IMG/VR virus record: IMGVR_UViG_3300037826_000058
Span: 55,095-119,094 of that record
Source: a virus
Strand: one strand, 5' to 3'
DNA length: 64,000 nt
Shown here piece after piece: positions 28,020 through 51,744 of this stretch (positions within the stretch are counted from its first letter, which is position 1; each line of letters starts with the position of its first letter). Both the position numbers and the translations under genes were made by a program. The notes under the pieces are model-generated. The model saw only the letters and a list, made by a program, of their open reading frames with translations, ran no database searches and was not told the DNA's origin.

Positions 28020-29108
28020 ATGATTAAAGTTGAAAGAGAGAAACTGTATTCAGCGGTAGAAATGCTTAAGGACGTAGTGTCAAAACGTCCTATCGTACCC
28101 ATTTACGGGCATATCTTAATCAGGGTCGAGGAAGGAGAGATGCGCCTCACCGCAGCCTCAGGGACAATGGGAGCGCATTTCTGGATTGATGATATAGAAA
28201 CAGATGGTGAAGAAGTAGAAGCAACGGTGCCAGTCAAAGAGGTTCACGACTGGCTTAACACACAACAATCTTCGGAATTTGTTACTGTCATTATAGAAGG
28301 TGATAGGGTCACACTAAGCACTGACAAAGCACAGGCGAATTTGCAATCTATGAACACCGAGCATTTCCCCAACGTATCAACAAAACCAGATGGGGAAGAC
28401 ATCGTTATTGGAGAGGAGGATTTCAAACGAGCAGTTGGTCAAACCATCTTCGCTACAGTTGACGATATTGCCCGCCCTATGTTGTCAAGCATCTTGGTTC
28501 AATCGACAGATAACGGGAAGCTGTGTTTCCAGGGTGCGGACGGTAATAGACTTTCCGCGACTTACATCGAATATCACGGAGGCGACTTTCGTGCCTTAGT
28601 ACCCAGAGAGACAATCAGGGTTGTAAGCCGTGCTTGTATGGGTACGGTTCGGATAGGATGGGCTGGTGGTAACATAGTATTTACGTCTGGTGATTGGGTG
28701 CTAAGCTCGCAAACTACAGAGCAGAAATATCCAGACTTTTCACCCTTCACAGAACGCAAGGAGGAAGACGTAAACACCATAGTGGAAATAGGAAAAGGTG
28801 CAAAAAACCAGTCAAGGGCTGTAATGGTCTTCGCAAAGCAGAACGACAATCTACTCAAGGTGAAGATAACTGCAGACCAAATAATCCTGTCGTCGTATGT
28901 AGAAGTGGGTTCGGGAGAGGCTAGCTTTCCTTGTTTCATTCACAAGGGGGATGAGTTAGAGTTCATGATAAACGGAGCGTATTTTGTTGACGCTCTCAAG
29001 GCAGGAGACAACCTGTCGCTCTGGATAGTTGACGAAACAGAAGCGGTTCAGTTTGTGAATGAAGACCAGACATTTGTTCATTTCATTATGCCGATGCAAC
29101 TCAGATAG
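28020..29108 (+). CDS. dnaN: DNA polymerase III beta sliding clamp
   Basis: 362 aa; RPMLSSI, GADGNRLS, KYPDF, INGAYFVDAL, C-terminal IMPMQL. Confidence 0.9.
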   Translation: MIKVEREKLYSAVEMLKDVVSKRPIVPIYGHILIRVEEGEMRLTAASGTMGAHFWIDDIETDGEEVEATVPVKEVHDWLNTQQSSEFVTVIIEGDRVTLSTDKAQANLQSMNTEHFPNVSTKPDGEDIVIGEEDFKRAVGQTIFATVDDIARPMLSSILVQSTDNGKLCFQGADGNRLSATYIEYHGGDFRALVPRETIRVVSRACMGTVRIGWAGGNIVFTSGDWVLSSQTTEQKYPDFSPFTERKEEDVNTIVEIGKGAKNQSRAVMVFAKQNDNLLKVKITADQIILSSYVEVGSGEASFPCFIHKGDELEFMINGAYFVDALKAGDNLSLWIVDETEAVQFVNEDQTFVHFIMPMQLR

Positions 29109-32137: not shown

Positions 32138-33265
32138 CTAAAGCAGGGGGCTTCTAGGGCTTTTGCCCAGGGACGATAGCCCTCGTCCCAAAATGTTTAG
32201 ACTAGCATTAAGATCACGATCAATCTCAAGACCACAATGAGGACACTTATGGACACGTTCGGACAGAGGCTTTTTGACAATCTTGCCACAACCAGAACAC
32301 ATCTGCGACGTGTTACGTGGGTCAACAGTGACGACCGTCCGCCCGGCCCATTCTGCCTTGGCTTGGGTCAATCTCACCAGTTGTCCCCACGCAGCGTCGG
32401 AGATGCTCTTGTTCAAGCTGCGCCAATTGCCTTCCTGTATGTCCTGAATGTCCAATGCCTCAAATGCAATGAATTGAAATTCGTTCACCAGTCGCCTACT
32501 CAGCTTGTGCGCGAAGTCTTTGCGACGATTAGCGATGCGTTGGTGAATGTGCTCTACCACCCGCTTCTGCTTGCGATACTCAGGCGTGCCTTTGTCACAC
32601 TCCGAGAGCTTGCGTTGTGCTTTAGCAAGGGCTTTCTCGTCTTTGCGGAAGAAGCGGGGGTTGTCAATCTGCGTACCGTCGCTGAGGGTAGCGAAGTGCT
32701 TACAGCCGAGGTCAATGCCAACTGTCTTGTGCGTGGGTTCAAGCAGTTCTGGTTCAAACTCTACCACGAAGCAAGCCCACCAATTGCCGAGGGCGTCTCG
32801 CTTAATATGAAGACGCTTGACCTCTCCCTCGATGGGGCGGTGAAGCACAATCTTAACATTGCCAATCTTGGAGAGGTAAAGTCTATCATCGCTAACTATC
32901 TTGAACCCGCTTTGCGGGAACGTAAACGACTTATACCAATTACCCTTGAAGCGCGGATACCCTGGATTCTCACCACCATCCTTACAACGTCGAAAGAAAT
33001 GCTGAAAAGCCAAGTCAACCCGTGTGCAAGCATCCTGCAAGACTTGAGAGTGTGCTTGTTTCAACCAAGGGTGCTCTGCTTTCCAACCAGGAAGCATATT
33101 GATTGTATCGTACAGCGAAAGCGATTCTTCTCGTTCTTCCCAGGCTTCCTTGCGCACTTCAAGCGTTTTGTTGTAGACCCATCGGCAAGCATCTAAGACG
33201 CTCTGCATAGCTGTGCGCTGTGCAGAACTAGGATAGAGCCGATACTTCATTGTCTTGGTAGCCAT
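32138..33265 (-). CDS. tnpB: RNA-guided endonuclease TnpB
   Basis: KYRLYP HTH, VGIDLG, FEAL, TSQMCSGCG..CPHCG..DRDLNAS; RuvC D-E-D present. Confidence 0.95.
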   Translation of the reverse strand: MATKTMKYRLYPSSAQRTAMQSVLDACRWVYNKTLEVRKEAWEEREESLSLYDTINMLPGWKAEHPWLKQAHSQVLQDACTRVDLAFQHFFRRCKDGGENPGYPRFKGNWYKSFTFPQSGFKIVSDDRLYLSKIGNVKIVLHRPIEGEVKRLHIKRDALGNWWACFVVEFEPELLEPTHKTVGIDLGCKHFATLSDGTQIDNPRFFRKDEKALAKAQRKLSECDKGTPEYRKQKRVVEHIHQRIANRRKDFAHKLSRRLVNEFQFIAFEALDIQDIQEGNWRSLNKSISDAAWGQLVRLTQAKAEWAGRTVVTVDPRNTSQMCSGCGKIVKKPLSERVHKCPHCGLEIDRDLNASLNILGRGLSSLGKSPRSPLL

Positions 33266-33272
33266 ATTAAAT

Positions 33273-33300
33273 ATTATACCACGTTTTATGTGTCTGTCAA
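33273..33300 (-). promoter_or_regulatory. Sigma70-type promoter for tnpB
   Basis: TTGACA-16-TATAAT with extended -10; ATG 7 nt downstream. Confidence 0.7.
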
Positions 33301-33398
33301 GTACATAAAACGCCATTCATCTCCTCGCTAAAGCAAGGAGTTTTCTGGCTTAACCTCTATAATTAGGATGATTGAGACACAGTGCTAAAGGGTTGTCG

Positions 33399-35419: not shown

Positions 35420-35446
35420 GCTTACTCCCCCCCCAAAAAAAATGAA

Positions 35447-35518
35447 TACCCCCAGCTGGACTCGAACCAGCATCTACGGTTTAGGAAACCGTGGCTCTTT
35501 CCATTGAGCTATGGGGGC
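35447..35518 (-). tRNA. tRNA-Arg(CCT)
   Basis: Cloverleaf; loop TTCCTAA. Confidence 0.88.
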
Positions 35519-35524
35519 ACTGCA

Positions 35525-35800
35525 TCACGAATACAAAGGATTAAGTTCCTCTTCCTCTTCCTCTGCAACCCATACCGCAAACCTCATTGTTTTGTTGAGG
35601 TTACGGAAGGAAACATCACCGTCATACGGCGCGGTGTCTCGTTCCCATCTCCCTTGTGCGTTCACCAGCACAACACATCTCATGTCGTACTTGGTGATAT
35701 ACTCTAGGGCGTCCTGTGGCGTCCTAAATACCAACGACCCTTCCTTTTTGATGATGGTCTCGTGGTCACCCACAGCGTCGGAACAGTAACTTGCTAGCAT
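35525..35800 (-). CDS. Hypothetical protein
   Basis: TAATG coupling to the upstream gene. Confidence 0.55.
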   Translation of the reverse strand: MLASYCSDAVGDHETIIKKEGSLVFRTPQDALEYITKYDMRCVVLVNAQGRWERDTAPYDGDVSFRNLNKTMRFAVWVAEEEEEELNPLYS

Positions 35801-36645
35801 TATTCCCCCTTATACTTCTTGGCCTTCTCCAGGATACTTGGAATGGCTTCTTCCATATACGGTTTCATTTTGTCGTAACGATAGGTTCTATCGGTAAATC
35901 TTCTGTTTGTTATTGCCTTGAGGAATACATTATTTACCTCTTCCATGTAGGAGCCATAGATGTGGTAGCTATCGGCCTGATGAACATAGCGCCCCACGCG
36001 AACCTCACGCCCAGCATGCTCGCTGACTCGATCAGCGATTTTTTCCTGTAACTTCACAAATGCGAACATATTCATAAAAGCGGCTTTGTAGGCATCGTTT
36101 GAACGCATTCGGACGTTGGTGTTCAAATACCACACCCCATCCGTATCAGGGAGAATACGACACCAGATGCTTTGTAAGCACGCTGGGTCGTGGCAAAACG
36201 GGTCTTCCCAAGGTTTCCAGGTAATCGCCTGGGCGCGACGCGTGTAGGGAGCTTGGGCTAGCTTGCACGCCATTACTTCTATTTGATTGTAAAGCTCATC
36301 AATCCCCGGTACAGAGTATGTAAACAAGCGCTCGTGGTACGTATACTCCCACCGAGTATCGTTAGGGTCATCAGGGTCGCGAACCCAGTGGTCTTTAATG
36401 CCATCCCTGACTTCCATTGTGTACTCTTGTAGGTCTTGTAATCCGCATGGTATCATGCGGCTTATCATGGGTTCAGCTAGGGGGCTGTCTACCACGATAG
36501 TCATTGTAGCGTCTAGCGATGGGGGGTCTTCAGGTTTATCATACTCCGTTTGGATTGGGGTTCCGCTATGATAAACCTTTAAGACAGACTTCTCCCAAGC
36601 AGAAGGAAGATTACTCCCCTGAACGCGAAGAACTGGTATATACAT
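35800..36645 (-). CDS. Thymidylate synthase family protein (short type)
   Basis: YTYHERL, TRRAQA, PACLQ, MRSND..AFMN, SYHIY. Confidence 0.85.
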   Translation of the reverse strand: MYIPVLRVQGSNLPSAWEKSVLKVYHSGTPIQTEYDKPEDPPSLDATMTIVVDSPLAEPMISRMIPCGLQDLQEYTMEVRDGIKDHWVRDPDDPNDTRWEYTYHERLFTYSVPGIDELYNQIEVMACKLAQAPYTRRAQAITWKPWEDPFCHDPACLQSIWCRILPDTDGVWYLNTNVRMRSNDAYKAAFMNMFAFVKLQEKIADRVSEHAGREVRVGRYVHQADSYHIYGSYMEEVNNVFLKAITNRRFTDRTYRYDKMKPYMEEAIPSILEKAKKYKGE

Positions 36646-36650
36646 TAATA

Positions 36651-37838
36651 TTATTTCCCCTTGTAGTGATTGCATCCCATTTCAGGGTAAACTACCCTGT
36701 GAATAGTAGGAACACCCCATCCAAATGTATTGTCCTTTCCTGGTTCTCCTAGGTCACAAGCACTGTCTTTAAGCGCATCGTAAACCTCGTCAGGGGAGAA
36801 CTCTGGATATAAAGACTTGATTACTCCAGCCGCCGCAGAAACGTGTGGGGTCGCCATTGATGTTCCCGATTTATACCACGTTTCCGCGGGGGACGTGTAG
36901 GCATACACACAAAACGAAGGTGCTACAAAATCTAATTTCTCACCGTAATTACTGAAGTATGCGAGGTCTAAGTCTTCATCGATCCCGCCTACCGATACGA
37001 CACTATCAAATCCAGCGGGATATACTAATACATCAATATGATGATTACCAGCCGCCGCCACTGGTAACACACCATTTTCCCTTGCACGCTTCAGTGCGTT
37101 TTCCACCATTGACCACGCTTCGCTTTGAGGGTCTCCATATCCCCCAAACGACATAGACATTACATCTACGTCGTTCTCGGTACACCAATCGATTGCCAAA
37201 ATGATTGCCCTGAGGGAGCACCTTCCTCCCTCACAGACTTTTAGATGTACCCCCTCACAGTGCGGGCAAATCCCTGCAATTCCCGTCTCATTATGAGGGG
37301 CGGCACTAATGCTTTGCACATGGTAACCATGTGTATCATCGTCAGTGGTGTCAGCATTCCCCGTGAAATAGTTCCAGCCCGTAATGTCATTGGTGGGCTG
37401 GTCTTCAATTGGTGACCAACCACTGTCCAGAAACGCAATACGGGCCACTTGGGTATAGGAACGCGTGTAAACAGACGGAACTTCTTCTACCCCCATCATC
37501 TGAGGCCCGTACTGGAGCTCTATGTGTTCGTCGTTTAGCGTAGGCCTTGGTGTGGGGGTAGGAGTAGGACGTGTTGGTACAGGAATAATCTCACTTGCTT
37601 TGAAAACCAACGGGAGGTAGTGGTAGTAACGCCCTTCTTGCTGAGTATAGATTTCTGGCAAGGGAAAACATTCTTGTAAGCGAATAACTTCCTTCTTTTC
37701 AACAAACCGATACCCATACCGAGCATTGCTGTCTTCAACCAACACATAATCGTCATCGATAAACCCTCCATCCGCCTTAACAGGGGTAAAAATCAAGAGG
37801 GTTACTAAGACAGCCAAAACCAAAGATAACCTGCGCAT
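36651..37838 (-). CDS. Secreted subtilisin-like (S8) serine protease
   Basis: Signal peptide; LDSG, HGYHV, AAAGN, GTSMATPHV. Confidence 0.92.
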   Translation of the reverse strand: MRRLSLVLAVLVTLLIFTPVKADGGFIDDDYVLVEDSNARYGYRFVEKKEVIRLQECFPLPEIYTQQEGRYYHYLPLVFKASEIIPVPTRPTPTPTPRPTLNDEHIELQYGPQMMGVEEVPSVYTRSYTQVARIAFLDSGWSPIEDQPTNDITGWNYFTGNADTTDDDTHGYHVQSISAAPHNETGIAGICPHCEGVHLKVCEGGRCSLRAIILAIDWCTENDVDVMSMSFGGYGDPQSEAWSMVENALKRARENGVLPVAAAGNHHIDVLVYPAGFDSVVSVGGIDEDLDLAYFSNYGEKLDFVAPSFCVYAYTSPAETWYKSGTSMATPHVSAAAGVIKSLYPEFSPDEVYDALKDSACDLGEPGKDNTFGWGVPTIHRVVYPEMGCNHYKGK

Positions 37839-38122
37839 ATTACGCCTCCCCAGATAGCAACCGTCAACAGTTGAATGAATAAAGCTACAGACGCGGTAAC
37901 CCACCACCCCCACAAAATATCAGGGTAGCGTCGCTTTATTAGCTTCCCCAGCCCATAAAGAACCACGGGAATAATAACCTTAACAGCCACGAGGGGAAGA
38001 TACCCATAAGATTGCCAAACCGAGACAGCAAGGGGGTTAGCCTCAGCACCAACCCCCCACGCGTAGGTGACAATTAAGTCAACTGCTTGCAAGAACAAGT
38101 ATAATAGAGTTAATCCCACCAT
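37805..38122 (-). CDS. Membrane protein (DUF5658-like)
   Basis: D...T...GAEANPL; three TM helices. Confidence 0.65.
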   Translation of the reverse strand: MVGLTLLYLFLQAVDLIVTYAWGVGAEANPLAVSVWQSYGYLPLVAVKVIIPVVLYGLGKLIKRRYPDILWGWWVTASVALFIQLLTVAIWGGVICAGYLWFWLS

Positions 38123-38589
38123 TGCTCGAACCCCTTCAACAGGCTAATAATCCTCTCTTTGTCTTCTTGCCTCTTTATCTCCGAAATGTACCGTGCTATG
38201 CGGTATACACGCTCGGCGGCTTCTTGCCTTCCTGGGCTGTTGACCTTGGAGAATTCTGGCCCAGTATATTGGTATAGCCCGTTCTCTATCGGCTCGAACC
38301 CCATAGAAATATCCCCAAAATGCTCCTCGAAGGATATAGACCTCAATGTTTCGTCTAGGTAATCGTCTGCTATGTATCTATCGATAGCATCAGCCAGCTC
38401 TTCAAGTTCGTTGGCAATATCGTCGGCTGATGTTGATAAACCGCTTTCCCTGAAAGAACGAGCCATCTTTCGAGACTTAAAGGATATAATCTCGAAAAGA
38501 TAAGCCCAATCCCAGTCTCTGTCTCCCCAGATAACAGGAGCCCAAGCGATTAGGTTCTTTATCCCTCTAAATATCTTATCAAACAACAT
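38110..38589 (-). CDS. Conserved phage hypothetical protein
   Basis: W.PVIW.DRDWD...WWD C-terminus. Confidence 0.65.
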   Translation of the reverse strand: MLFDKIFRGIKNLIAWAPVIWGDRDWDWAYLFEIISFKSRKMARSFRESGLSTSADDIANELEELADAIDRYIADDYLDETLRSISFEEHFGDISMGFEPIENGLYQYTGPEFSKVNSPGRQEAAERVYRIARYISEIKRQEDKERIISLLKGFEQWWD

Positions 38590-38794
38590 TGGCCTCCGAG
38601 TTATCACCAACGACGTTTCCGTCTCCGGTGATACTAACATTGCGAGGTTGTGCGAGCGCAAGCGCGGAATTCTTGGGGTATAGTTCACCGCACTTGGGGC
38701 AAGCCGTGGGCTTTTTCATAACAGCATATCCATTCCCCTCTTCAGCATGACTTGCATAGAACTTGGCTTTACATTTGTCGCATACAACAATCAT
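38579..38794 (-). CDS. Zinc-ribbon protein
   Basis: CDKC...CPKC; GGAGG RBS. Confidence 0.55.
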   Translation of the reverse strand: MIVVCDKCKAKFYASHAEEGNGYAVMKKPTACPKCGELYPKNSALALAQPRNVSITGDGNVVGDNSEANVV

Positions 38795-38805
38795 TTCAGA
38801 CCCTC

Positions 38806-39354
38806 CTAGCTTGTCCAATTAGCGTCTTCTTTAACGCGTTTATCCCAACACTTCTCACAGTAAATACCAGCAAAGTGTCGCCGGTTCTGTGCTTCACTAG
38901 CATCTATAAGCTTACCACAGGTGCTACAATGCACCTGACCTTCTCGCCACTTCTGCGTGGCATCGAGAATACGGTTTACAGTCTCTTTTGGCATTTTCTC
39001 GTCAGGGTCAGATAGAAATCTGACTCCCACCAACTTTGTCTGTGTAGGTGACCACAGCGTCAGTCCCCACAAATTGGTATAGACGTATCTTGACTTGGGC
39101 TTATCCCCCAGCATCTCAAACCCATCGAATTCCTCCGACAAACGATGCTCTTCCGTCTTTCCTGGTATGACCATCTTCTGGGTCACCATCAGGGGGTATT
39201 CCCTATGCCCATCCCTAAACCTTAATCTAGGATTATCATAGGGGTCTCCAATAGCGGCCCTCAATCTTCTTTCCACCTTGGGCAGTTCTTCGGTGAACCA
39301 CTCCATATCCAATCGGTGAAGGTCGTTTCTATCAATAATAACCTTAGCGTCCAT
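38806..39354 (-). CDS. Hypothetical protein with C-terminal Zn finger
   Basis: CSTC...CEKC; GAGGAGG RBS. Confidence 0.6.
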   Translation of the reverse strand: MDAKVIIDRNDLHRLDMEWFTEELPKVERRLRAAIGDPYDNPRLRFRDGHREYPLMVTQKMVIPGKTEEHRLSEEFDGFEMLGDKPKSRYVYTNLWGLTLWSPTQTKLVGVRFLSDPDEKMPKETVNRILDATQKWREGQVHCSTCGKLIDASEAQNRRHFAGIYCEKCWDKRVKEDANWTS

Positions 39355-39377
39355 AATCACCTCCTCACTCATTGCCA

Positions 39378-39406
39378 ATTATACACCAAAACCCCCTGGC
39401 TGTCAA
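39378..39406 (-). promoter_or_regulatory. Sigma70-type promoter
   Basis: TTGACA-17-TATAAT. Confidence 0.85.
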
Positions 39407-39624
39407 GGGGGTTCAAAAAAAATTAAGAGGGTTTTTGCTTTTCTCTAACCGCCTCTTCAAGAGTACGATCATTCAGACAGTCATTACATACGTCACACCC
39501 TGCTTGGATAGGTTTAACTTTATCACATCTAGAACACCGTTTTTCTATGTACGATGCTCTATAAATCCCTTCAATTGTATGGTATTTTCTTTTCACACTC
39601 CCCCCTGTTTTCTTAACCTACAGA

Positions 39625-39697
39625 TATGCCCAGCGGGGATCGAACCCGCGACCTCTGGCTCTTCAGGCCAGCGCTCTACCAACTGAGCTACAGGCAT
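39625..39697 (-). tRNA. tRNA-Phe(GAA)
   Basis: Loop CTGAAGA. Confidence 0.9.
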
Positions 39698-39707
39698 ACG
39701 TCACCGA

Positions 39708-47502: not shown

Positions 47503-48196
47503 ATAACCAATACGCCCAGATGTCTTCTCTACCTGCCTTTTCCCATGTTGCCCCCCATTTTTCTAGGAGGCTCGTCACGTCACCTAGGGTAAAGCCCATC
47601 TGTCTCGTATTAACGTTATGGTGCTCCAAGAGCATCACAGGATGATGCTCCCTGATCGTTTGCTTTCCCCCTCTTAAAACCAATACTTCAGCACCTTCGG
47701 TGTCTATCTTGATGAAATCTGGTGGGGGAACCTCTATATCATCTAATCTTCTTGTCTCTATTTCAACGACCCTCTTTGCCTTAAAACGTAGAGGAGATTG
47801 AGATAGCGTCGCCAGCCCGCTAGCACCGATGTCTTTTGGAACACTCAATCTTGCCTTACCATCTTCATCATATAGAGCAATACAGTATGGTGTTACCCTG
47901 TCTTCTACACCATTGCGCTTTATGTTTTCTAAGAGTATTTCATAGACACTTGGGTTGGGTTCAAATGCAAACACTCTCATCCCAGGATGCAACGTGGTAA
48001 GAAGGCTATAAGAACCTGTGCTAGCCCCCACGTCAACCACTACTGGCTTTTCAAGTGCTACCGTTCTTTGGTAGAACTCTTTCAGGAGACCAGCGTCCCA
48101 AGCTCTTGTCTGGTTGTTTGCCGTGACAAACGACCCACGCACTTGTCTTGTCAATGGATGTACTTTTACTCTATGATTTCCAAAAAGATATGCCAT
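47501..48196 (-). CDS. FkbM-family methyltransferase
   Basis: VVDVGASTG, FAFEPNP, DFIKIDTEGAE. Confidence 0.88.
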   Translation of the reverse strand: MAYLFGNHRVKVHPLTRQVRGSFVTANNQTRAWDAGLLKEFYQRTVALEKPVVVDVGASTGSYSLLTTLHPGMRVFAFEPNPSVYEILLENIKRNGVEDRVTPYCIALYDEDGKARLSVPKDIGASGLATLSQSPLRFKAKRVVEIETRRLDDIEVPPPDFIKIDTEGAEVLVLRGGKQTIREHHPVMLLEHHNVNTRQMGFTLGDVTSLLEKWGATWEKAGREDIWAYWL

Positions 48197-48198
48197 AG

Positions 48199-48270
48199 CG
48201 CCCCCAGCGGGATTTGAACCCGCAACATCGGTTCGACAGACCGACATTTTGCCAATTAAACTATGAGGGC
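48199..48270 (-). tRNA. tRNA-Asp(GTC)
   Basis: Loop CTGTCGA. Confidence 0.88.
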
Positions 48271-48333
48271 TTATCCCCCTCGATGGCATCCCCTACATAC
48301 CCACATTCTCCAACTAGACCACCGAGGGGGCAA

Positions 48334-48417
48334 GAGCGAGGGTCGGATTTGAACCGACGTTAGGCTTTCGCCTCTAGGTTATGAGCCTAGTGGGTTACCA
48401 GACTACCCTACCTCGCT
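48334..48417 (-). tRNA. tRNA-Met(CAT) with long variable arm
   Basis: Loop CTCATAA; AGGC-GAAA-GCCT extra arm. Confidence 0.8.
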
Positions 48418-48496
48418 ATGTACCCCCGTGAAACACGATCATGGTTCTCCGCACAGAAGAGAAGCATGCTCGTCTGTACTGTTTCACAAAGGGTAA

Positions 48497-48570
48497 TGGA
48501 TACGGCGGGATTTGAACCCGCAACCTCTACAGTGCAAATGTAGCGCTCTCCCCAATTGAGCTACGCACCC
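48497..48570 (-). tRNA. tRNA-Ala(TGC)
   Basis: Loop TTTGCAC; G3:U70. Confidence 0.9.
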
Positions 48571-48574
48571 TCAG

Positions 48575-48649
48575 TCGGGGAAGTGGGATTTGAACCCACG
48601 ATCTCGGCATCCCAAATGCCGCGTCCATTCCTGACTGGACTATTCCCCG
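48575..48649 (-). tRNA. tRNA-Pro(TGG)
   Basis: Loop TTTGGGA. Confidence 0.9.
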
Positions 48650-48758
48650 GTGCTGTCTATCGCTAGACAGCTGGGGTGATGTCTTGCCCCATCACCCCAG
48701 TAAGAAAGGACTTTTACCAGGTGTGCTAGAGGTGAAGAATTTGGTGGGCAAGCACCAA

Positions 48759-48833
48759 TAGGCCGAGCAGGATTTGAACCTGCGAATTACCACCTTATCG
48801 GAGTGGTGCCTTACCAGACTTGGCTATCGGCCT
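48759..48833 (-). tRNA. tRNA-Ile(GAT)
   Basis: Loop CCGATAA. Confidence 0.85.
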
Positions 48834-48836
48834 CTG

Positions 48837-48918
48837 TGGAGGTGGCGGGACTCGAACCCGCGTCCCCACCAGTGCCCTTCGGCTTCAAGGTGGGTCGATT
48901 TCCCTTTTCGACACCCCC
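48837..48918 (-). ncRNA. Mini-tmRNA: tRNA-like domain only, no tag reading frame
   Basis: GGGGGTG..TCGAC-CCACC..GGTGG-GGAC-GCGGGTTCGAGTCCCGC-CACCTCC-A; G3:U70. Confidence 0.75.
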
Positions 48919-48985
48919 GTGACTGTTCCCTCGCAAGGGCGAGGGCTTTTAGGGCTTTTGCCCACGGACGCCAGTCCACGTCCCC
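48919..48985 (-). ncRNA. Orphan TnpB right-end/omega-RNA scaffold-like segment
   Basis: Colinear with the tnpB right end at 32122-32189; both end in AGTCAC. Confidence 0.7.
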
Positions 48986-48987
48986 AG

Positions 48988-49060
48988 AGCGGAAGATGAG
49001 ATTTGAACTCACAACCTCCTGCTTGGCAAGCAGGCGTTCTACCAATTGAACTACTCCCGC
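48988..49060 (-). tRNA. tRNA-Gly(GCC)
   Basis: Loop TTGCCAA. Confidence 0.9.
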
Positions 49061-49064
49061 GAGG

Positions 49065-49138
49065 CACGCTAGGCAGGAATCGAACCCGCAACATACGGTT
49101 TTGGAGACCGCCGCTCTCCCTAATTGAGCTACTAGCGT
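49065..49138 (-). tRNA. tRNA-Trp(CCA)
   Basis: Loop CTCCAAA. Confidence 0.9.
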
Positions 49139-49281
49139 GCGTTGGGGCTGAAGCCTATCTCATTCAGCCCCAAGTGCGTCACCTTTTTACACTATGGGCC
49201 TCATTAATCCCATACCCCCGTCGCTTGGCCCTAACTTAGAGGATATAGCAGGAAACAATAGGCTTTTCCTGCCTTGGGGAA

Positions 49282-49354
49282 TGGATTTGGCGGGACTCGA
49301 ACCCACGACCTCCACAATGCCATTGTGGCGCTCTCCCAACTGAGCTACAAACCC
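49282..49354 (-). tRNA. tRNA-Ala(GGC)
   Basis: Loop ATGGCAT; G3:U70. Confidence 0.9.
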
Positions 49355-49394
49355 ACGCTATAAGTTGTTAAAGTTCCTTGCTCAACTAACAGCA

Positions 49395-49423
49395 ATTATA
49401 TCACGATTGGGCCGGTTTGTCAA
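49395..49423 (-). promoter_or_regulatory. Sigma70-type promoter for the tRNA array
   Basis: TTGACA-17-TATAAT. Confidence 0.85.
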
Positions 49424-49451
49424 GCGATTCGTCACTAGAAAACTCTTAAAA

Positions 49452-49524
49452 CTGACGGGGTGGGGGTCGAACCCACGACCTCCTGATTAACAGTCAGGCG
49501 CTCTACCAGCTGAGCTACCCGCCA
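49452..49524 (-). tRNA. tRNA-Asn(GTT)
   Basis: Loop CTGTTAA. Confidence 0.9.
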
Positions 49525-49535
49525 AAATACGCACG

Positions 49536-50655: not shown

Positions 50656-50943
50656 TCAAGCATTTAATCCGTCTGGCAAGCCGACGAAGGCTATAGAGGC
50701 ATCATAGATGATACGTGCTCTTTCTACATCAGGTTGGTTGCGGGGTATATCAGCTATTTCCCATTCAGCCATCCATCTGCTCATCAATCTTCTGTACACC
50801 TTCCCGTTTCGATAGGTTATCTCCAACAATACGCTCTCCCCATGCCAATCGTGCTTGCTGGTTTCATCGGTTCCTTCTTGTATCTCTTCACCGATTTCTT
50901 CTAGTCGCTTTTCCGCATCTTCCGCCGGAACTTCCTTTCTCAT
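50656..50943 (-). CDS. Hypothetical protein
   Basis: ATGA coupling. Confidence 0.55.
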   Translation of the reverse strand: MRKEVPAEDAEKRLEEIGEEIQEGTDETSKHDWHGESVLLEITYRNGKVYRRLMSRWMAEWEIADIPRNQPDVERARIIYDASIAFVGLPDGLNA

Positions 50944-51530
50944 GATTCCCTCACAAATGTTATATTTTCCTCTTGACCATGTGATTGTCTTCTTCGGCTT
51001 TCTATCTCAAACCCATGCCGTTCCATCCATGCAACTACAACTGATGCTTGGGGTTGTCCCTCATAGACACAGTGAGAAACAGTGGTGACTTCTAGAGTTG
51101 CTTTCTGAATGCGATCTATCAATCGACCCGCAGATTGTACCACTTGCAAGTCGAGACCCTGAGCATCAACCTTAAGGTAATCAACTTTCTCAATGCGTAC
51201 CTGTTCCATAAACGTGTCAAGACGAATTGAGGGCACCAAGACACGTTTAACCTGATGCAGTTTATCCCCACCAATCCATTGGCTTACCCCCCTTCGGCTC
51301 AGAGGAAGCACACTACTACTTGCCTCATATGCGTTGACATAGAACGGCACCACACCATTGGTCAACGTCACGGCGCATGGTAAAACGATGTAGTTTTTGC
51401 GTTGACTCGCAATCTGATTGGCAAAATGTATAAGTGGTTCAAAGGCATACACTATGCTGTCAGGGTTCCTTGCAGCGTGTGGCAATGATTTTTGCCCTCT
51501 ATGAGCACCTACATCAATCCATACTTCCAT
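50940..51530 (-). CDS. FkbM-family methyltransferase
   Basis: IDVGAHRG, YAFEP, YLKVDAQGLD. Confidence 0.87.
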   Translation of the reverse strand: MEVWIDVGAHRGQKSLPHAARNPDSIVYAFEPLIHFANQIASQRKNYIVLPCAVTLTNGVVPFYVNAYEASSSVLPLSRRGVSQWIGGDKLHQVKRVLVPSIRLDTFMEQVRIEKVDYLKVDAQGLDLQVVQSAGRLIDRIQKATLEVTTVSHCVYEGQPQASVVVAWMERHGFEIESRRRQSHGQEENITFVRES

Positions 51531-51744
51531 CTCCCTGCTCCTTAGCATCTACCCTGAAATCTATTGGCGGCAAGACTTCCATCTGTCCCAATTGCCCCGC
51601 CTTGACAGCCCGTTTACCGTGCAACGCAATTACCATAGTTCCATACCCAGTTGTCTTGTTATCCAGGTATTCCATTAGCGAACCATATCTGTCCAACCAA
51701 TCTAAGACCTTTACAATCTTAATATCTCTTTGCTTCCTATTCAT
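51514..51744 (-). CDS. Small protein (weak DUF2292/YezD-like GYG.MVI.LHG motif)
   Basis: GGAGG RBS; motif resemblance only. Confidence 0.5.
   Translation of the reverse strand: MNRKQRDIKIVKVLDWLDRYGSLMEYLDNKTTGYGTMVIALHGKRAVKAGQLGQMEVLPPIDFRVDAKEQGDGSMD

What the first reader, a model, noticed from the sequence alone, without database searches (positions are those of the whole stretch)
48837..48918. 82-nt mini-tmRNA with the tRNA-like domain but no mRNA-like domain
Seen: tmRNA-style ends (5' GGGGGTG...TCGAC; 3' GGAC-GCGGGTTCGAGTCCCGC-CACCTCCA) and the alanine identity elements G3:U70 and A73. A CCACC/GGTGG helix encloses only 18 nt where tmRNA has roughly 250-300 nt of pseudoknots and tag ORF. 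There is no anticodon loop. Known: these are the AlaRS and SmpB recognition elements, and tag-less tmRNAs are described from protist mitochondria. Inference: a phage RNA that titrates SmpB, or acts on stalled ribosomes without adding a degradation tag.
Basis: partly seen in the sequence, partly recalled or inferred. Interest (0 to 1): 0.85.

Follow-up and report, generated by a model that had tools for sequence, protein, structure and literature searches.

The report
Phage mini-tmRNA lacking the tag
An 82-base RNA gene inside a phage tRNA cluster is a stripped-down tmRNA that keeps only the alanine-accepting tRNA-like part; one such case (mycobacteriophage DS6A) is already published, but the same design turns up in dozens of other phages, so phages may commonly tamper with the host's ribosome-rescue system.

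Summary
Window 48837-48918 (minus strand) encodes an 82-nt RNA with a 7-bp acceptor stem (G3:U70, A73), a tmRNA-type D-loop analogue, one 6-bp helix enclosing 18 nt, GGAC, and a T-arm. ARAGORN does not call it. Rfam's tmRNA model scores it 43.6 bits (cut-off 47), against 25.3 for the best real tRNA.

It is not a one-off. A covariance model built from 18 similar elements in other viral contigs, window excluded, scores it 62.8 bits against 32.9 for the best tRNA. The same model finds one 80-nt element in mycobacteriophage DS6A at 59.5 bits. DS6A carries the published "TLD-only" tmRNA.

I collected 57 members, 48 of them unique. All have G3:U70 and A73, with compensatory changes in the stems. There is one copy per record. 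No SmpB and no full-length tmRNA was found in any of 50 records. The closed form is phage-enriched: 36 of 42 viral pattern hits against 5 of 120 bacterial ones.

Function is inferred. It is probably charged with alanine and uses host SmpB to compete with host tmRNA, rescuing or blocking stalled ribosomes without the degradation tag.

Verdict: a new member of a known kind, from a family much wider than the literature I could search reports.

The parts
48912..48918 (-). Acceptor stem, 5' strand (GGGGGUG), carrying G3 of the G3:U70 pair
   Evidence: pairs 1-7 with 66-72 are 100% paired across the family
48895..48911 (-). D-loop analogue, 17 nt (UCGAAAAGGGAAAUCGA). It contains the GG...UCGA(C) signature of tmRNA and is the longest D region in the family. 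Its two UCGA words can form a 4-bp stem in the MFE fold.
   Evidence: (aligned to the model consensus gGgu.UUcGAC with a 4-nt insertion)
48889..48894 (-). Helix 2 (P2a-like), 5' strand CCCACC
   Evidence: the first four pairs of this helix covary across the family
48871..48888 (-). 18-nt cap that stands in for the pseudoknots and tag ORF: purine-rich UUGAA, a small GCC/GGC hairpin, then ACU
   Evidence: Rfam tmRNA alignment of relatives shows 304-306 model positions replaced by 10-14 nt
48865..48870 (-). Helix 2, 3' strand GGUGGG (its last G is the first G of the conserved GGAC)
48862..48864 (-). GAC linker before the T-arm (GGAC is present in 47 of 48 unique family members; DS6A has GCAC)
48845..48861 (-). 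T-arm GCGGG-UUCGAGU-CCCGC
48838..48844 (-). Acceptor stem, 3' strand CACCUCC (U70 at 48840)
48837..48837 (-). Discriminator A73. CCA is not encoded (next bases are CAG), as for all 34 tRNAs of the array.
49395..49423 (-). Sigma-70 consensus promoter-like site (TTGACA-17-TATAAT, 12 of 12, TG upstream). It is the likely start of the transcript tRNA-Ala(GGC)-Trp-Gly-[element]-Ile-Pro-Ala(UGC).
   Evidence: consensus match only; 6 sites found in the region against 2.7 expected
48759..48833 (-). tRNA-Ile(GAU), 3 nt downstream of the element. RNase P cleavage at its 5' end would leave only a 3-nt trailer on the element.
48987..49060 (-). tRNA-Gly(GCC), 68 nt upstream of the element

Best explanation
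The element is a TLD-only (tag-less) tmRNA of the type first noted in mycobacteriophage DS6A.

Proposed pathway:
1. It is transcribed with the neighbouring tRNAs and cut out by the host tRNA-processing enzymes.
2. The host enzyme adds its CCA end.
3. Host AlaRS charges it with alanine through G3:U70 and A73.
4. Host SmpB binds it, since the phage encodes no SmpB.
5. As Ala-RNA.SmpB.EF-Tu it competes with host tmRNA for SmpB and for the empty A site of ribosomes stalled on broken mRNAs.
6. It can accept the nascent chain on alanine. Having no resume codon, tag ORF or stop codon, it cannot add the ssrA degradation tag.

The net effect for the phage is that trans-translation tagging is diverted or blocked during infection.

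Shown here: the sequence and structure, family membership, conservation of the alanine identity set, and the absence of phage SmpB, of a full-length tmRNA and of release factors.

Inferred: expression, processing, charging, SmpB binding, ribosome entry and the benefit to the phage.

My confidence in the identity is about 0.9. My confidence that it acts as a charged competitor on the ribosome, and not as a mere sponge, is about 0.5.
For: Identity:
- Rfam tmRNA scores it 43.6 bits, against 25.3 for the best real tRNA in the genome.
- Family model R1, built without the window, scores it 62.8 against 32.9.
- DS6A's single hit scores 59.5 bits and has the same segment-by-segment architecture.
- Rfam aligns close relatives over the whole TLD with the central 304-306 positions deleted.

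Structure under selection:
- 99.3% of cells are paired, against about 48-62% when partners are slid.
- 104 cells have changes on both sides, against 32.4 +/- 4.5 in shuffles; 0 of 500 shuffles reach the observed value.
- The helix-2 pairs and T-stem pair 128:142 were not constrained by my search patterns.

Charging under selection:
- G3:U70 is in 48 of 48 and A73 in 48 of 48 unique sequences, while pairs 4-7 vary with compensation.
- 24 of 48 encode CCA.

Dependence on host factors:
- SmpB 0 of 50 records.
- No full-length tmRNA in 50 of 50.
- Pth, RF-1/ArfB and RtcB each 0 of 49, and none in the window's own genome.

A dedicated phage gene:
- Exactly one copy in 49 of 49 records.
- Closed form in 36 of 42 viral pattern hits against 5 of 120 bacterial ones.

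Expression context:
- Same strand and spacing as the tRNAs, with a consensus promoter upstream.

Literature (passages read):
- A similar TLD-only molecule strongly inhibited tmRNA in E. coli (Mao 2009, as cited in PMC4131195 and PMC11915505).
- SmpB with a TLD fragment supports template-free polyalanine synthesis in vitro (Shimizu and Ueda 2006, as cited in PMC3929946).
Against: - There is no expression, processing, charging or SmpB-binding evidence for this element or for any metagenomic member.
- The window element is one of 4 of 50 that fall below Rfam's tmRNA gathering score. Its D region is atypically long, with a possible 4-bp stem that the family consensus lacks.
- According to PMC4131195, the inhibitory effect of the E. 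coli analogue did not need chargeability. That favours simple SmpB titration over ribosome entry.
- No route is evident for releasing a peptidyl-Ala-RNA that has no stop codon. No Pth or ArfB is phage-encoded.
- For 42 of the 57 members, G3:U70 and A73 were forced by my first search pattern. Both patterns also required a particular T-arm and GGAC, so the census is biased and is a lower bound.
- The host is unknown, so compatibility with its AlaRS and SmpB cannot be checked.
Confidence: 0.55

Rival explanations
1. Pure SmpB sponge. The RNA only soaks up host SmpB (and perhaps RNase R or EF-Tu) and never needs to be charged or to enter the ribosome. Trans-translation is simply shut down.
For: [quoted passage not shown] The phages encode no SmpB of their own (0 of 50). 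The conserved GG..UCGAC and GGAC segments flank the helix where the TLD-SmpB complex forms (PMC3929946 passages).
Against: If charging were irrelevant, the G3:U70 wobble and A73 should drift. They are invariant in 48 of 48 unique sequences while neighbouring pairs change freely, including in the elements whose acceptor was not constrained by the search. Half the members even encode CCA. A wobble pair kept across elements whose own G+C runs from 44 to 76% points to AlaRS recognition.
Confidence: 0.28
2. tRNA-like decoy unrelated to trans-translation. It would be an anticodon-less tRNA mimic that distracts host tRNA-targeting defences or tRNA-modifying or processing enzymes, in line with the anti-defence role proposed for phage tRNA arrays.
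For: It sits inside a 34-tRNA array. It reaches 35.4 bits on Rfam's tRNA model, above the gathering score of 29. In tRNA-rich relatives the family member is also inside or next to the array.
Against: 29 of 42 loci with a family member hold no tRNA at all, and 23 of 50 whole records have no tRNA hit. The conserved features are tmRNA-specific (GG..UCGAC, GGAC, G3:U70, A73) and not generic tRNA features. Known anticodon nucleases need an anticodon loop, which the element lacks (established knowledge, recalled).
Confidence: 0.07
3. Decaying remnant. A full-length phage tmRNA suffered an internal deletion, and the leftover has no function.
For: Many phages do carry full-length or two-piece tmRNAs (PMC9004378 passages). 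The window element scores below Rfam's cut-off.
Against: 48 unique sequences from very different phages share the same compact design, with a neatly capped helix and compensatory changes. There is one copy per record. The sequence is identical or near-identical in other samples' contigs. The three distant relatives of this phage have no tmRNA of any form at all.
Confidence: 0.04
4. Integration site (attP). The element is the phage copy of the 3' part of the host ssrA gene, used for site-specific integration, possibly also replacing a host tmRNA disrupted by integration.
For: tmRNA genes are common integration sites (PMC10865867 and PMC11590407, passages). In 4 of 50 records (G002, G020, G037, G046) a tyrosine integrase lies within about 2 kb of the family member.
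Against: The window's genome (91% complete by CheckV) has no tyrosine integrase. Only 9 of 50 records have one, and in 5 of those it is 4.6-56 kb away. An attP needs only the 3' part, yet every member has a matching 5' acceptor strand. In DS6A the element lies about 10 kb from the integrase, and the phage is reported to integrate at a tRNA-Lys gene (PMC10865867, table passage). Serine integrases were not searched for.
Confidence: 0.02
5. Y-RNA-like partner of the Ro60-like DUF2828/DUF7788/vWA protein encoded 1.8 kb away in the array.
For: Weak Rfam YrlA hit (21.8 bits) over the element's 3' half plus the next tRNA. The DUF2828+DUF7788+vWA protein at 45604-47019 lies inside the array.
Against: The YrlA gathering score is 69. 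The protein occurs in only 2 of 50 records that carry a family member. The 3 records that have the protein (G050-G052) have no such RNA.
Confidence: 0.02

Closest known systems
TLD-only tmRNA of mycobacteriophage DS6A (tmRNA Website entry; Mao et al. 2009; Hudson et al. 2014; 2025 tmRNA database paper)
   Same: Same architecture segment by segment: 7-bp acceptor with G3:U70, A73, GG..UCGA D-loop analogue, 6-bp helix starting C:G, purine-rich stretch plus small hairpin as cap, T-arm. Length is 80 against 82 nt. Both are single-copy and phage-borne, with no SmpB found. They score 59.5 and 62.8 bits on the same model.
   Different: DS6A is a 60.6-kb temperate actinophage, and its element stands alone between protein genes, unannotated in GenBank. 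The window's element is embedded in a 34-tRNA operon of a ~119-kb phage with no integrase. DS6A has GCAC where the window has GGAC, and a GCGAG/CUCGC T stem. The window has a longer D region. The two phages are unrelated as far as tested.
Bacterial one-piece tmRNA (Rfam RF00023)
   Same: The whole tRNA-like domain: acceptor stem with alanine identity, D-loop analogue, base of helix 2, GGAC, T-arm. Rfam aligns close relatives over model positions 1-374.
   Different: About 300 nt are missing: all pseudoknots, the resume codon, the tag ORF and its stop codon. It therefore cannot act as a messenger or add a degradation tag. The window element scores 43.6, below the gathering score of 47.
Reduced mitochondrial tmRNAs of jakobids and CDS-less plastid tmRNAs (Jacob et al. 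2004; PMC3590771; PMC11915505)
   Same: Loss of the mRNA-like domain with retention of G3:U70 and A73. Function is thought to be limited to freeing stalled ribosomes (passages read).
   Different: Those are organellar, mostly two-piece (permuted), and are the cell's own and only tmRNA, working with a dedicated imported SmpB. The phage form is one-piece and is an extra RNA introduced into a cell that already has a full tmRNA, so it would act as a competitor.
Laboratory TLD constructs (for example the T. thermophilus 5' 25 nt + 3' 34 nt + UUCG loop crystallised with SmpB; TLD used by Shimizu and Ueda 2006)
   Same: Essentially the same molecule by design: TLD closed by a short loop. Reported to bind SmpB and to support template-free polyalanine synthesis in vitro (PMC3929946, passages).
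   Different: Those are engineered. The phage family is natural and carries a conserved, more elaborate cap (purine-rich stretch plus mini-hairpin) of unknown role.
Two-piece (permuted) phage tmRNAs (for example Stenotrophomonas phage Marzo, OM43 phage Melnitz)
   Same: Phage-borne, often beside tRNAs, with a near-identical T-arm and 3' end (PMC9004378 passages).
   Different: In those the acceptor piece has no adjacent 5' strand, and a coding piece with a tag follows. The window element is closed and has no coding piece.

Membership tests
tmRNA (RF00023), tRNA-like domain | 7-bp acceptor stem with G3:U70 and discriminator A73 (alanine identity) | tested here: met
tmRNA (RF00023), tRNA-like domain | D-loop analogue GG..UUCGAC followed directly by helix 2, whose 3' strand is followed by GGAC and the T-arm | tested here: met
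   relatives. The window has AAAUCGAC with a 4-nt insertion relative to the family consensus.
tmRNA (RF00023), whole molecule | mRNA-like domain: resume codon, tag reading frame, stop codon | tested here: not met
   Only 18 nt lie between the helix strands. No other tmRNA-like hit exists in the 119-kb genome.
tmRNA (RF00023), whole molecule | Pseudoknots PK1-PK4 | tested here: not met
   There is no room for them. In relatives, 304-306 model positions are deleted.
tmRNA (RF00023), whole molecule | Rfam gathering score of 47 bits | tested here: not met
   43.6 bits; 46 of the 50 family members examined do pass
tmRNA (functional definition) | Alanylation by AlaRS; binding of SmpB and EF-Tu | not testable with these tools
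   Needs biochemistry. Only the identity elements and conserved TLD segments are seen.
Phage TLD-only mini-tmRNA (DS6A type) | Closed one-piece TLD plus capped helix 2, 60-120 nt, scoring on a family covariance model | tested here: met
   R1 scores 62.8 bits, E 5.4e-12, and the model was built without the window. DS6A scores 59.5.
Phage TLD-only mini-tmRNA (DS6A type) | Phage-borne, single copy, no full-length tmRNA and no SmpB in the same genome | tested here: met
Phage TLD-only mini-tmRNA (DS6A type) | Inhibits host tmRNA function | not testable with these tools
   Known only for an E. coli analogue (Mao 2009, cited in PMC4131195). That paper is not held.
tRNA (RF00005) | Cloverleaf with a 7-nt anticodon loop | tested here: not met
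   ARAGORN makes no call. The arm in the anticodon position encloses 18 nt with a hairpin of its own. The Rfam tRNA score of 35.4 is the lowest of the 34 hits.
Two-piece (permuted) tmRNA | Acceptor 3' piece precedes a separate 5' piece that carries the tag ORF | tested here: not met
   The 5' acceptor strand is contiguous. The Rfam tmRNA_permuted hit is 17.3 against a gathering score of 47.
Bacterial Y RNA (YrlA) | Rfam score and a Ro60-type partner protein | tested here: not met
   21.8 against a gathering score of 69. The DUF7788 protein co-occurs in 2 of 50 records.

The most novel reading that the evidence does not exclude
These are not passive decoys. They would be a phage-specific, alanine-charged rescue RNA family that hijacks host SmpB to run a tag-free, or template-free (poly)alanine-adding, version of trans-translation. 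This would keep ribosomes running and spare phage proteins from ssrA-directed proteolysis when host defences or phage nucleases shred mRNAs. That would make trans-translation a regular battleground of infection, with a dedicated RNA weapon that standard annotation tools miss.
Probability: 0.25. Interest if true: 0.8.

Novelty: new member of a known kind. Interest (0 to 1): 0.6.

Why it matters
Trans-translation is the main ribosome-rescue pathway of bacteria, and in many species it is essential. Whether and how phages manipulate it is largely unexplored.

The papers I could read treat the TLD-only form as a curiosity of one mycobacteriophage. Phage tmRNA surveys rely on ARAGORN (PMC9004378, passages), which called none of the 42 elements of the first scan.

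This work shows that the window's element belongs to a conserved family. The family is phage-enriched, occurs once per genome, and always keeps the alanine identity set while never bringing its own SmpB. That gives a clean, testable system: one small RNA, with known host partners and known assays. It can answer whether phages block tagging, divert rescue, or add alanine tails.

There is also a practical consequence. A covariance model for this class would correct many phage annotations. DS6A's own element is unannotated in its GenBank record.

Tried and rejected
- Strict pattern copying the window's own 5' and 3' halves in viral contigs: 0 hits. Looser patterns were needed.
- DNA similarity of the surrounding 601 nt to named phages: only generic tRNA matches.
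- The element itself against named phages: the top hits were two-piece tmRNAs (Stenotrophomonas, Alcaligenes, Xanthomonas phages), a real tRNA-Ala (Vibrio phages) and full-length Streptomyces phage tmRNAs. No mini form was among the 60 rows listed; 196 further records were not inspected. I first suspected that Marzo's 375-nt tmRNA feature was mis-drawn, then withdrew that, since it fits a permuted gene.
- Close relatives of the phage: none through the portal protein. The three distant records found through the DUF2828 protein have no tmRNA form.
- MAFFT alignments A1 and A2 staggered the 5' ends and were not used for counting.
- Expression: no RNA holder is listed among the public runs. This says nothing either way.
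- Parts of the stretch without contig cover in runs X3 and X4 are not interpreted.
- A joint skipping 48865-49071 appears in single contigs of X1 and X4 at 88% likeness. I take it for other organisms' tRNA-like sequence and did not follow it up.
- Phage-encoded helpers for release or repair (Pth, RF-1/ArfB, RtcB, CCA-adding enzyme): none.
- The terminator-like site on the plus strand inside the element is at chance level (3 found, 3.1 expected).
- Mao et al. 2009 could not be read. Supplementary files of the tmRNA database papers, which may list further phage TLD-only entries, were not consulted.
- One script line mis-indexed U70 and printed 5 of 48. It was corrected to 48 of 48.

Full report
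**1. What is there**

Read on the minus strand, window 48918->48837 is an 82-nt element made of these segments:
- GGGGGUG
- UCGAAAAGGGAAAUCGA
- CCCACC
- UUGAAGCCGAAGGGCACU
- GGUGGG
- GAC
- GCGGG-UUCGAGU-CCCGC
- CACCUCC
- A

It folds into a 7-bp acceptor stem with G3:U70, a D-like region, a 6-bp helix enclosing 18 nt, and a T-arm. The MFE is -38.2 kcal/mol and the z-score only -2.27, so the energy on its own is weak evidence.

It lies in a run of 34 tRNA genes, all on the minus strand (35446-49525). It sits 3 nt upstream of tRNA-Ile and 68 nt downstream of tRNA-Gly. ARAGORN calls neither a tRNA nor a tmRNA here. Rfam's tRNA model gives 35.4 bits, the lowest of the window's 34 hits. Rfam's tmRNA model, aligned over its full length, gives 43.6 bits (E 2.1e-17). 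That is just under the gathering score of 47, but far above the 25.3 bits of the best genuine tRNA. In a local alignment, the 3' 30 nt are almost letter for letter the tmRNA consensus.

**2. It is real DNA**

Contigs from other tidal-flat samples carry it unchanged. An 8,560-nt contig of run X2 spans 48300-49500 with 1 difference and no gaps. A contig of run X3 covers 48764-48914 with no difference. X1 may be the source sample and is not counted.

**3. It is one of a family**

- 43 of those loci hold a closed element of 61-119 nt with a perfect 7-bp acceptor stem.
- ARAGORN takes 2 of them for tRNAs, and I dropped those two.
- ARAGORN called none of the remaining 41 loci's elements, nor the window's.
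- The other hits were full-length tmRNAs of 330-430 nt, or bare 3' ends.

A covariance model (R1) was built from 18 of these elements, window excluded. It scores the window element at 62.8 bits (E 5.4e-12), against 32.9 for the next best hit, tRNA-Ala(GGC). It scores the 42 elements at 49.6-81.7 bits.

Rfam's tmRNA model aligns two close members end to end. The acceptor, GAucuGGaUUCGAC, helix 2, GGAC, T-arm and ACCA are kept, and 304-306 model positions are replaced by 10-14 nt.

**4. The published precedent belongs to the same family**

Hudson et al. 2014 list 'Mycobacterium phage DS6A (TLD only)'. They say that a similar molecule, chargeable or not, strongly inhibited tmRNA, perhaps by titrating SmpB, and cite Mao et al. 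2009 (PMC4131195, passages). The 2025 tmRNA database paper repeats this and adds ~65-bp CDS-less plastid forms (PMC11915505, passages).

R1 finds exactly one match in the DS6A genome: 28478-28557, 80 nt, 59.5 bits. It lies between gp33 and gp34 and is not annotated in the record. Segment by segment it matches the window element.

**5. Is the conservation an artefact of my search?**

Partly, so I controlled for it. The first pattern forced GGGG...CUCCA. A second pattern fixed only UUCGAC, GGAC and the T-arm, leaving the acceptor free. It returned 42 viral stretches, a complete listing.
- 22 were already known, and all of those are closed elements.
- Of the 20 new ones, 14 are closed elements. 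All 14 have G3:U70 and A73, although their acceptor stems differ (GGGUGUG, GGGCCGG, GGGCCCG, GGGCCAU, GCGCGCG).
- The other 6 are ordinary tRNAs or pieces without a 5' strand.

Over all 57 members (48 unique):

| Feature | Count or range |
|---|---|
| G3:U70 | 48 of 48 |
| A73 | 48 of 48 |
| Pair 4:69 | 3 types |
| Pair 5:68 | 5 types |
| Pair 6:67 | 5 types |
| Encoded CCA | 24 of 48 |
| Length | 61-119 nt, median 79 |
| G+C | 0.44-0.76 |

On the structural alignment:
- 99.3% of cells pair, against 48-62% when partners are slid.
- 104 cells have changes on both sides, against 32.4 +/- 4.5 in shuffles (0 of 500 shuffles reach the observed value).

The acceptor pairing was a selection criterion. 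The helix-2 pairs (3 of 4 with changes on both sides) and T-stem pair 128:142 (4 types, 36 of 36 paired) were not.

**6. Whole-record context**

I searched 50 records: the window's genome plus 49 others. One locus, L104, was not held.

| Question | Result |
|---|---|
| Copies of the element per record | exactly 1 in 49 of 49 |
| SmpB | 0 of 50 |
| tmRNA-model hits | only the mini element plus three weak hits of 25-31 bits, two of which coincide with tRNA-model hits; 46 of 50 minis pass Rfam's cut-off; no full-length tmRNA anywhere |
| Tyrosine integrase | 9 of 50; none in the window's genome; within ~2 kb of the element in four (G002, G020, G037, G046) |
| tRNA hits | 27 of 50 records have at least one |
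| Pth, RF-1/ArfB, RtcB | 0 of 49 each, and none in the window's genome |
| CCA-adding enzyme in the window's genome | none |

In the tRNA-rich records the element lies in or next to the array. These are G000 with 34 tRNAs, G040 with 42, G045 with 33, G049 with 21, G034 with 19 and G013 with 15. In the loci of the first scan, 12 of 42 have a tRNA within 2 kb and 29 of 42 have none.

**7. Phage enrichment**

I ran the same acceptor-free pattern on one genome per bacterial species. The other 115 are the normal 3' region of full-length tmRNAs. In viral contigs the figure is 36 of 42. The 5 bacterial cases, among them a Saccharibacteria MAG and an Achromobacter MAG, may be prophages or mis-binned phage contigs; I did not check.

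**8. This phage**

It is a ~119-kb record, 91% complete by CheckV, with no end repeats. It encodes a Mu-like portal, a DNA clamp, methylases, a TnpB and sugar-nucleotide enzymes. It has no close relative: the best portal identity to named phages is 35.6%, and there is none in the viral contigs.

Those have no tmRNA of any form.

A perfect sigma-70 consensus (TTGACA-17-TATAAT, with TG) lies at 49423->49395 on the minus strand. It sits upstream of tRNA-Ala(GGC)-Trp-Gly-[element]-Ile-Pro-Ala(UGC). This is a consensus match only. None of the 34 tRNAs encodes CCA, and neither does the element.

**9. How it most likely works**

Shown:
- The RNA has every sequence feature that tmRNA uses as a tRNA.
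- It has none that tmRNA uses as a messenger.
- The alanine identity set is kept under what looks like selection.
- The phage supplies no SmpB, no second tmRNA and no release factor.

Inferred:
- It is made with the tRNAs, trimmed, given CCA, charged by host AlaRS and bound by host SmpB.

From there, two modes are possible.

(a) Charged competitor. Ala-RNA.SmpB.EF-Tu enters stalled ribosomes and takes the nascent chain, but no tag follows. A review reports that a TLD fragment with SmpB even supports template-free polyalanine synthesis in vitro (Shimizu and Ueda 2006, cited in PMC3929946, passages).

(b) Sponge. It merely sequesters SmpB, as suggested for the E. coli analogue, whose effect did not need chargeability (PMC4131195).

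I favour (a), because an unneeded G:U wobble and A73 would not stay invariant while the rest of the stem turns over. But (b) is the only mode with any experimental backing, and how a peptidyl-Ala-RNA without a stop codon would be released is open. Either way, the expected outcome is less ssrA tagging during infection.

**10. Rivals**

- **attP site.** Excluded for this window as far as tyrosine integrases go: there is none, and a 5' strand is present.
- **Decayed remnant.** Disfavoured by the family-wide design and the covariation.
- **Y-RNA partner of the DUF2828/DUF7788/vWA protein at 45604-47019.** Rejected: the protein co-occurs in 2 of 50 records, and the YrlA score is 21.8 against 69.
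- **Generic tRNA decoy.** Cannot be excluded, but it does not explain the tmRNA-specific conserved segments.

**11. Novelty**

The kind is known from DS6A, and in organelles from jakobid mitochondria (PMC3590771, passages) and some plastids. The window element is a new member of it.

What I did not find in the searchable library (searches, plus the passages read) is any account of these points:
- This is a widespread, phage-enriched family.
- It sits inside the tRNA operons of large phages.
- ARAGORN-based surveys miss it.

The 2025 database paper names only DS6A as a similar CDS-less form from a phage (passage read; supplements not seen). Most subscription journals are not in the library, so this is not proof that it is unpublished.

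Noticed in passing
window 45604-47019 (-); also L009:10001-11410, L011:10001-11404, L010:1058-2548, G034:C1:16347-16886: A 471-aa DUF2828 + DUF7788 + vWA protein sits inside the tRNA array here. Homologues (45-49% identity) sit among the tRNA genes of two otherwise distant phages (L009, L011), and a DUF7788 match lies inside the array of G034. The L010 stretch holds no tRNA. It has no solved relative by sequence and no functional literature. My idea that the architecture resembles Ro60/TROVE-vWA is recalled and was not tested.
   Followed up: partly
window 47501-48289 (-) and 50940-51548 (-): Two FkbM-type methyltransferases flank this part of the tRNA array. The first also gives a weak TRM5/TYW2 methyltransferase-domain match. 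They may be tRNA-modifying enzymes.
   Followed up: no
window 48334-48417 (-): tRNA-Met(CAU) of 84 nt with a long extra arm, which is unusual for a methionine tRNA.
   Followed up: no
window 32138-33316 (-): A TnpB/IS605 OrfB-type gene (OrfB_IS605 + Cas12f1-like TNB + HTH domains) lies inside the phage genome, next to an N6/N4 DNA methylase.
   Followed up: no
L009:12237-12308 (+): A distant relative's tRNA array holds a tRNA with a CUA anticodon, which ARAGORN labels tRNA-Pyl. This is a candidate amber suppressor and may mean stop-codon reassignment in that phage.
   Followed up: no
L150 (JN698994.1) 28478-28557 (+): DS6A's published TLD-only tmRNA is not annotated in its GenBank record. The same genome encodes an RtcB-like RNA ligase, gp76. 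RtcB was absent from the 49 other records with a family member.
   Followed up: yes
L126 (MZ326868.1), L128 (OK149171.2), L129 (PQ569993.1): Stenotrophomonas, Alcaligenes and Xanthomonas phages carry what look like acceptor pieces of two-piece tmRNAs. In related records the same spot is annotated variously as none, tmRNA, tRNA-OTHER or ssrA.
   Followed up: partly
L188, L219, L239, L245, L254 (genome contigs): Five closed mini elements lie in bacterial assemblies, among them a Candidatus Saccharibacteria MAG (70 nt) and an Achromobacter MAG (77 nt). I did not determine whether they are prophages, mis-binned phage contigs, or the cell's own reduced tmRNA.
   Followed up: no
G002, G020, G037, G046 (loci L014, L075, L124, L145): In four records a tyrosine integrase lies within about 2 kb of the mini element, so in some temperate phages the element may double as, or sit beside, an attachment site.
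   Followed up: partly
window 48919-48986 (-): The 68-nt spacer between tRNA-Gly and the element contains a perfect 7-bp hairpin (CCCUCGC-CCUU-GCGAGGG) with no U tract after it. It may be a processing signal.
   Followed up: no
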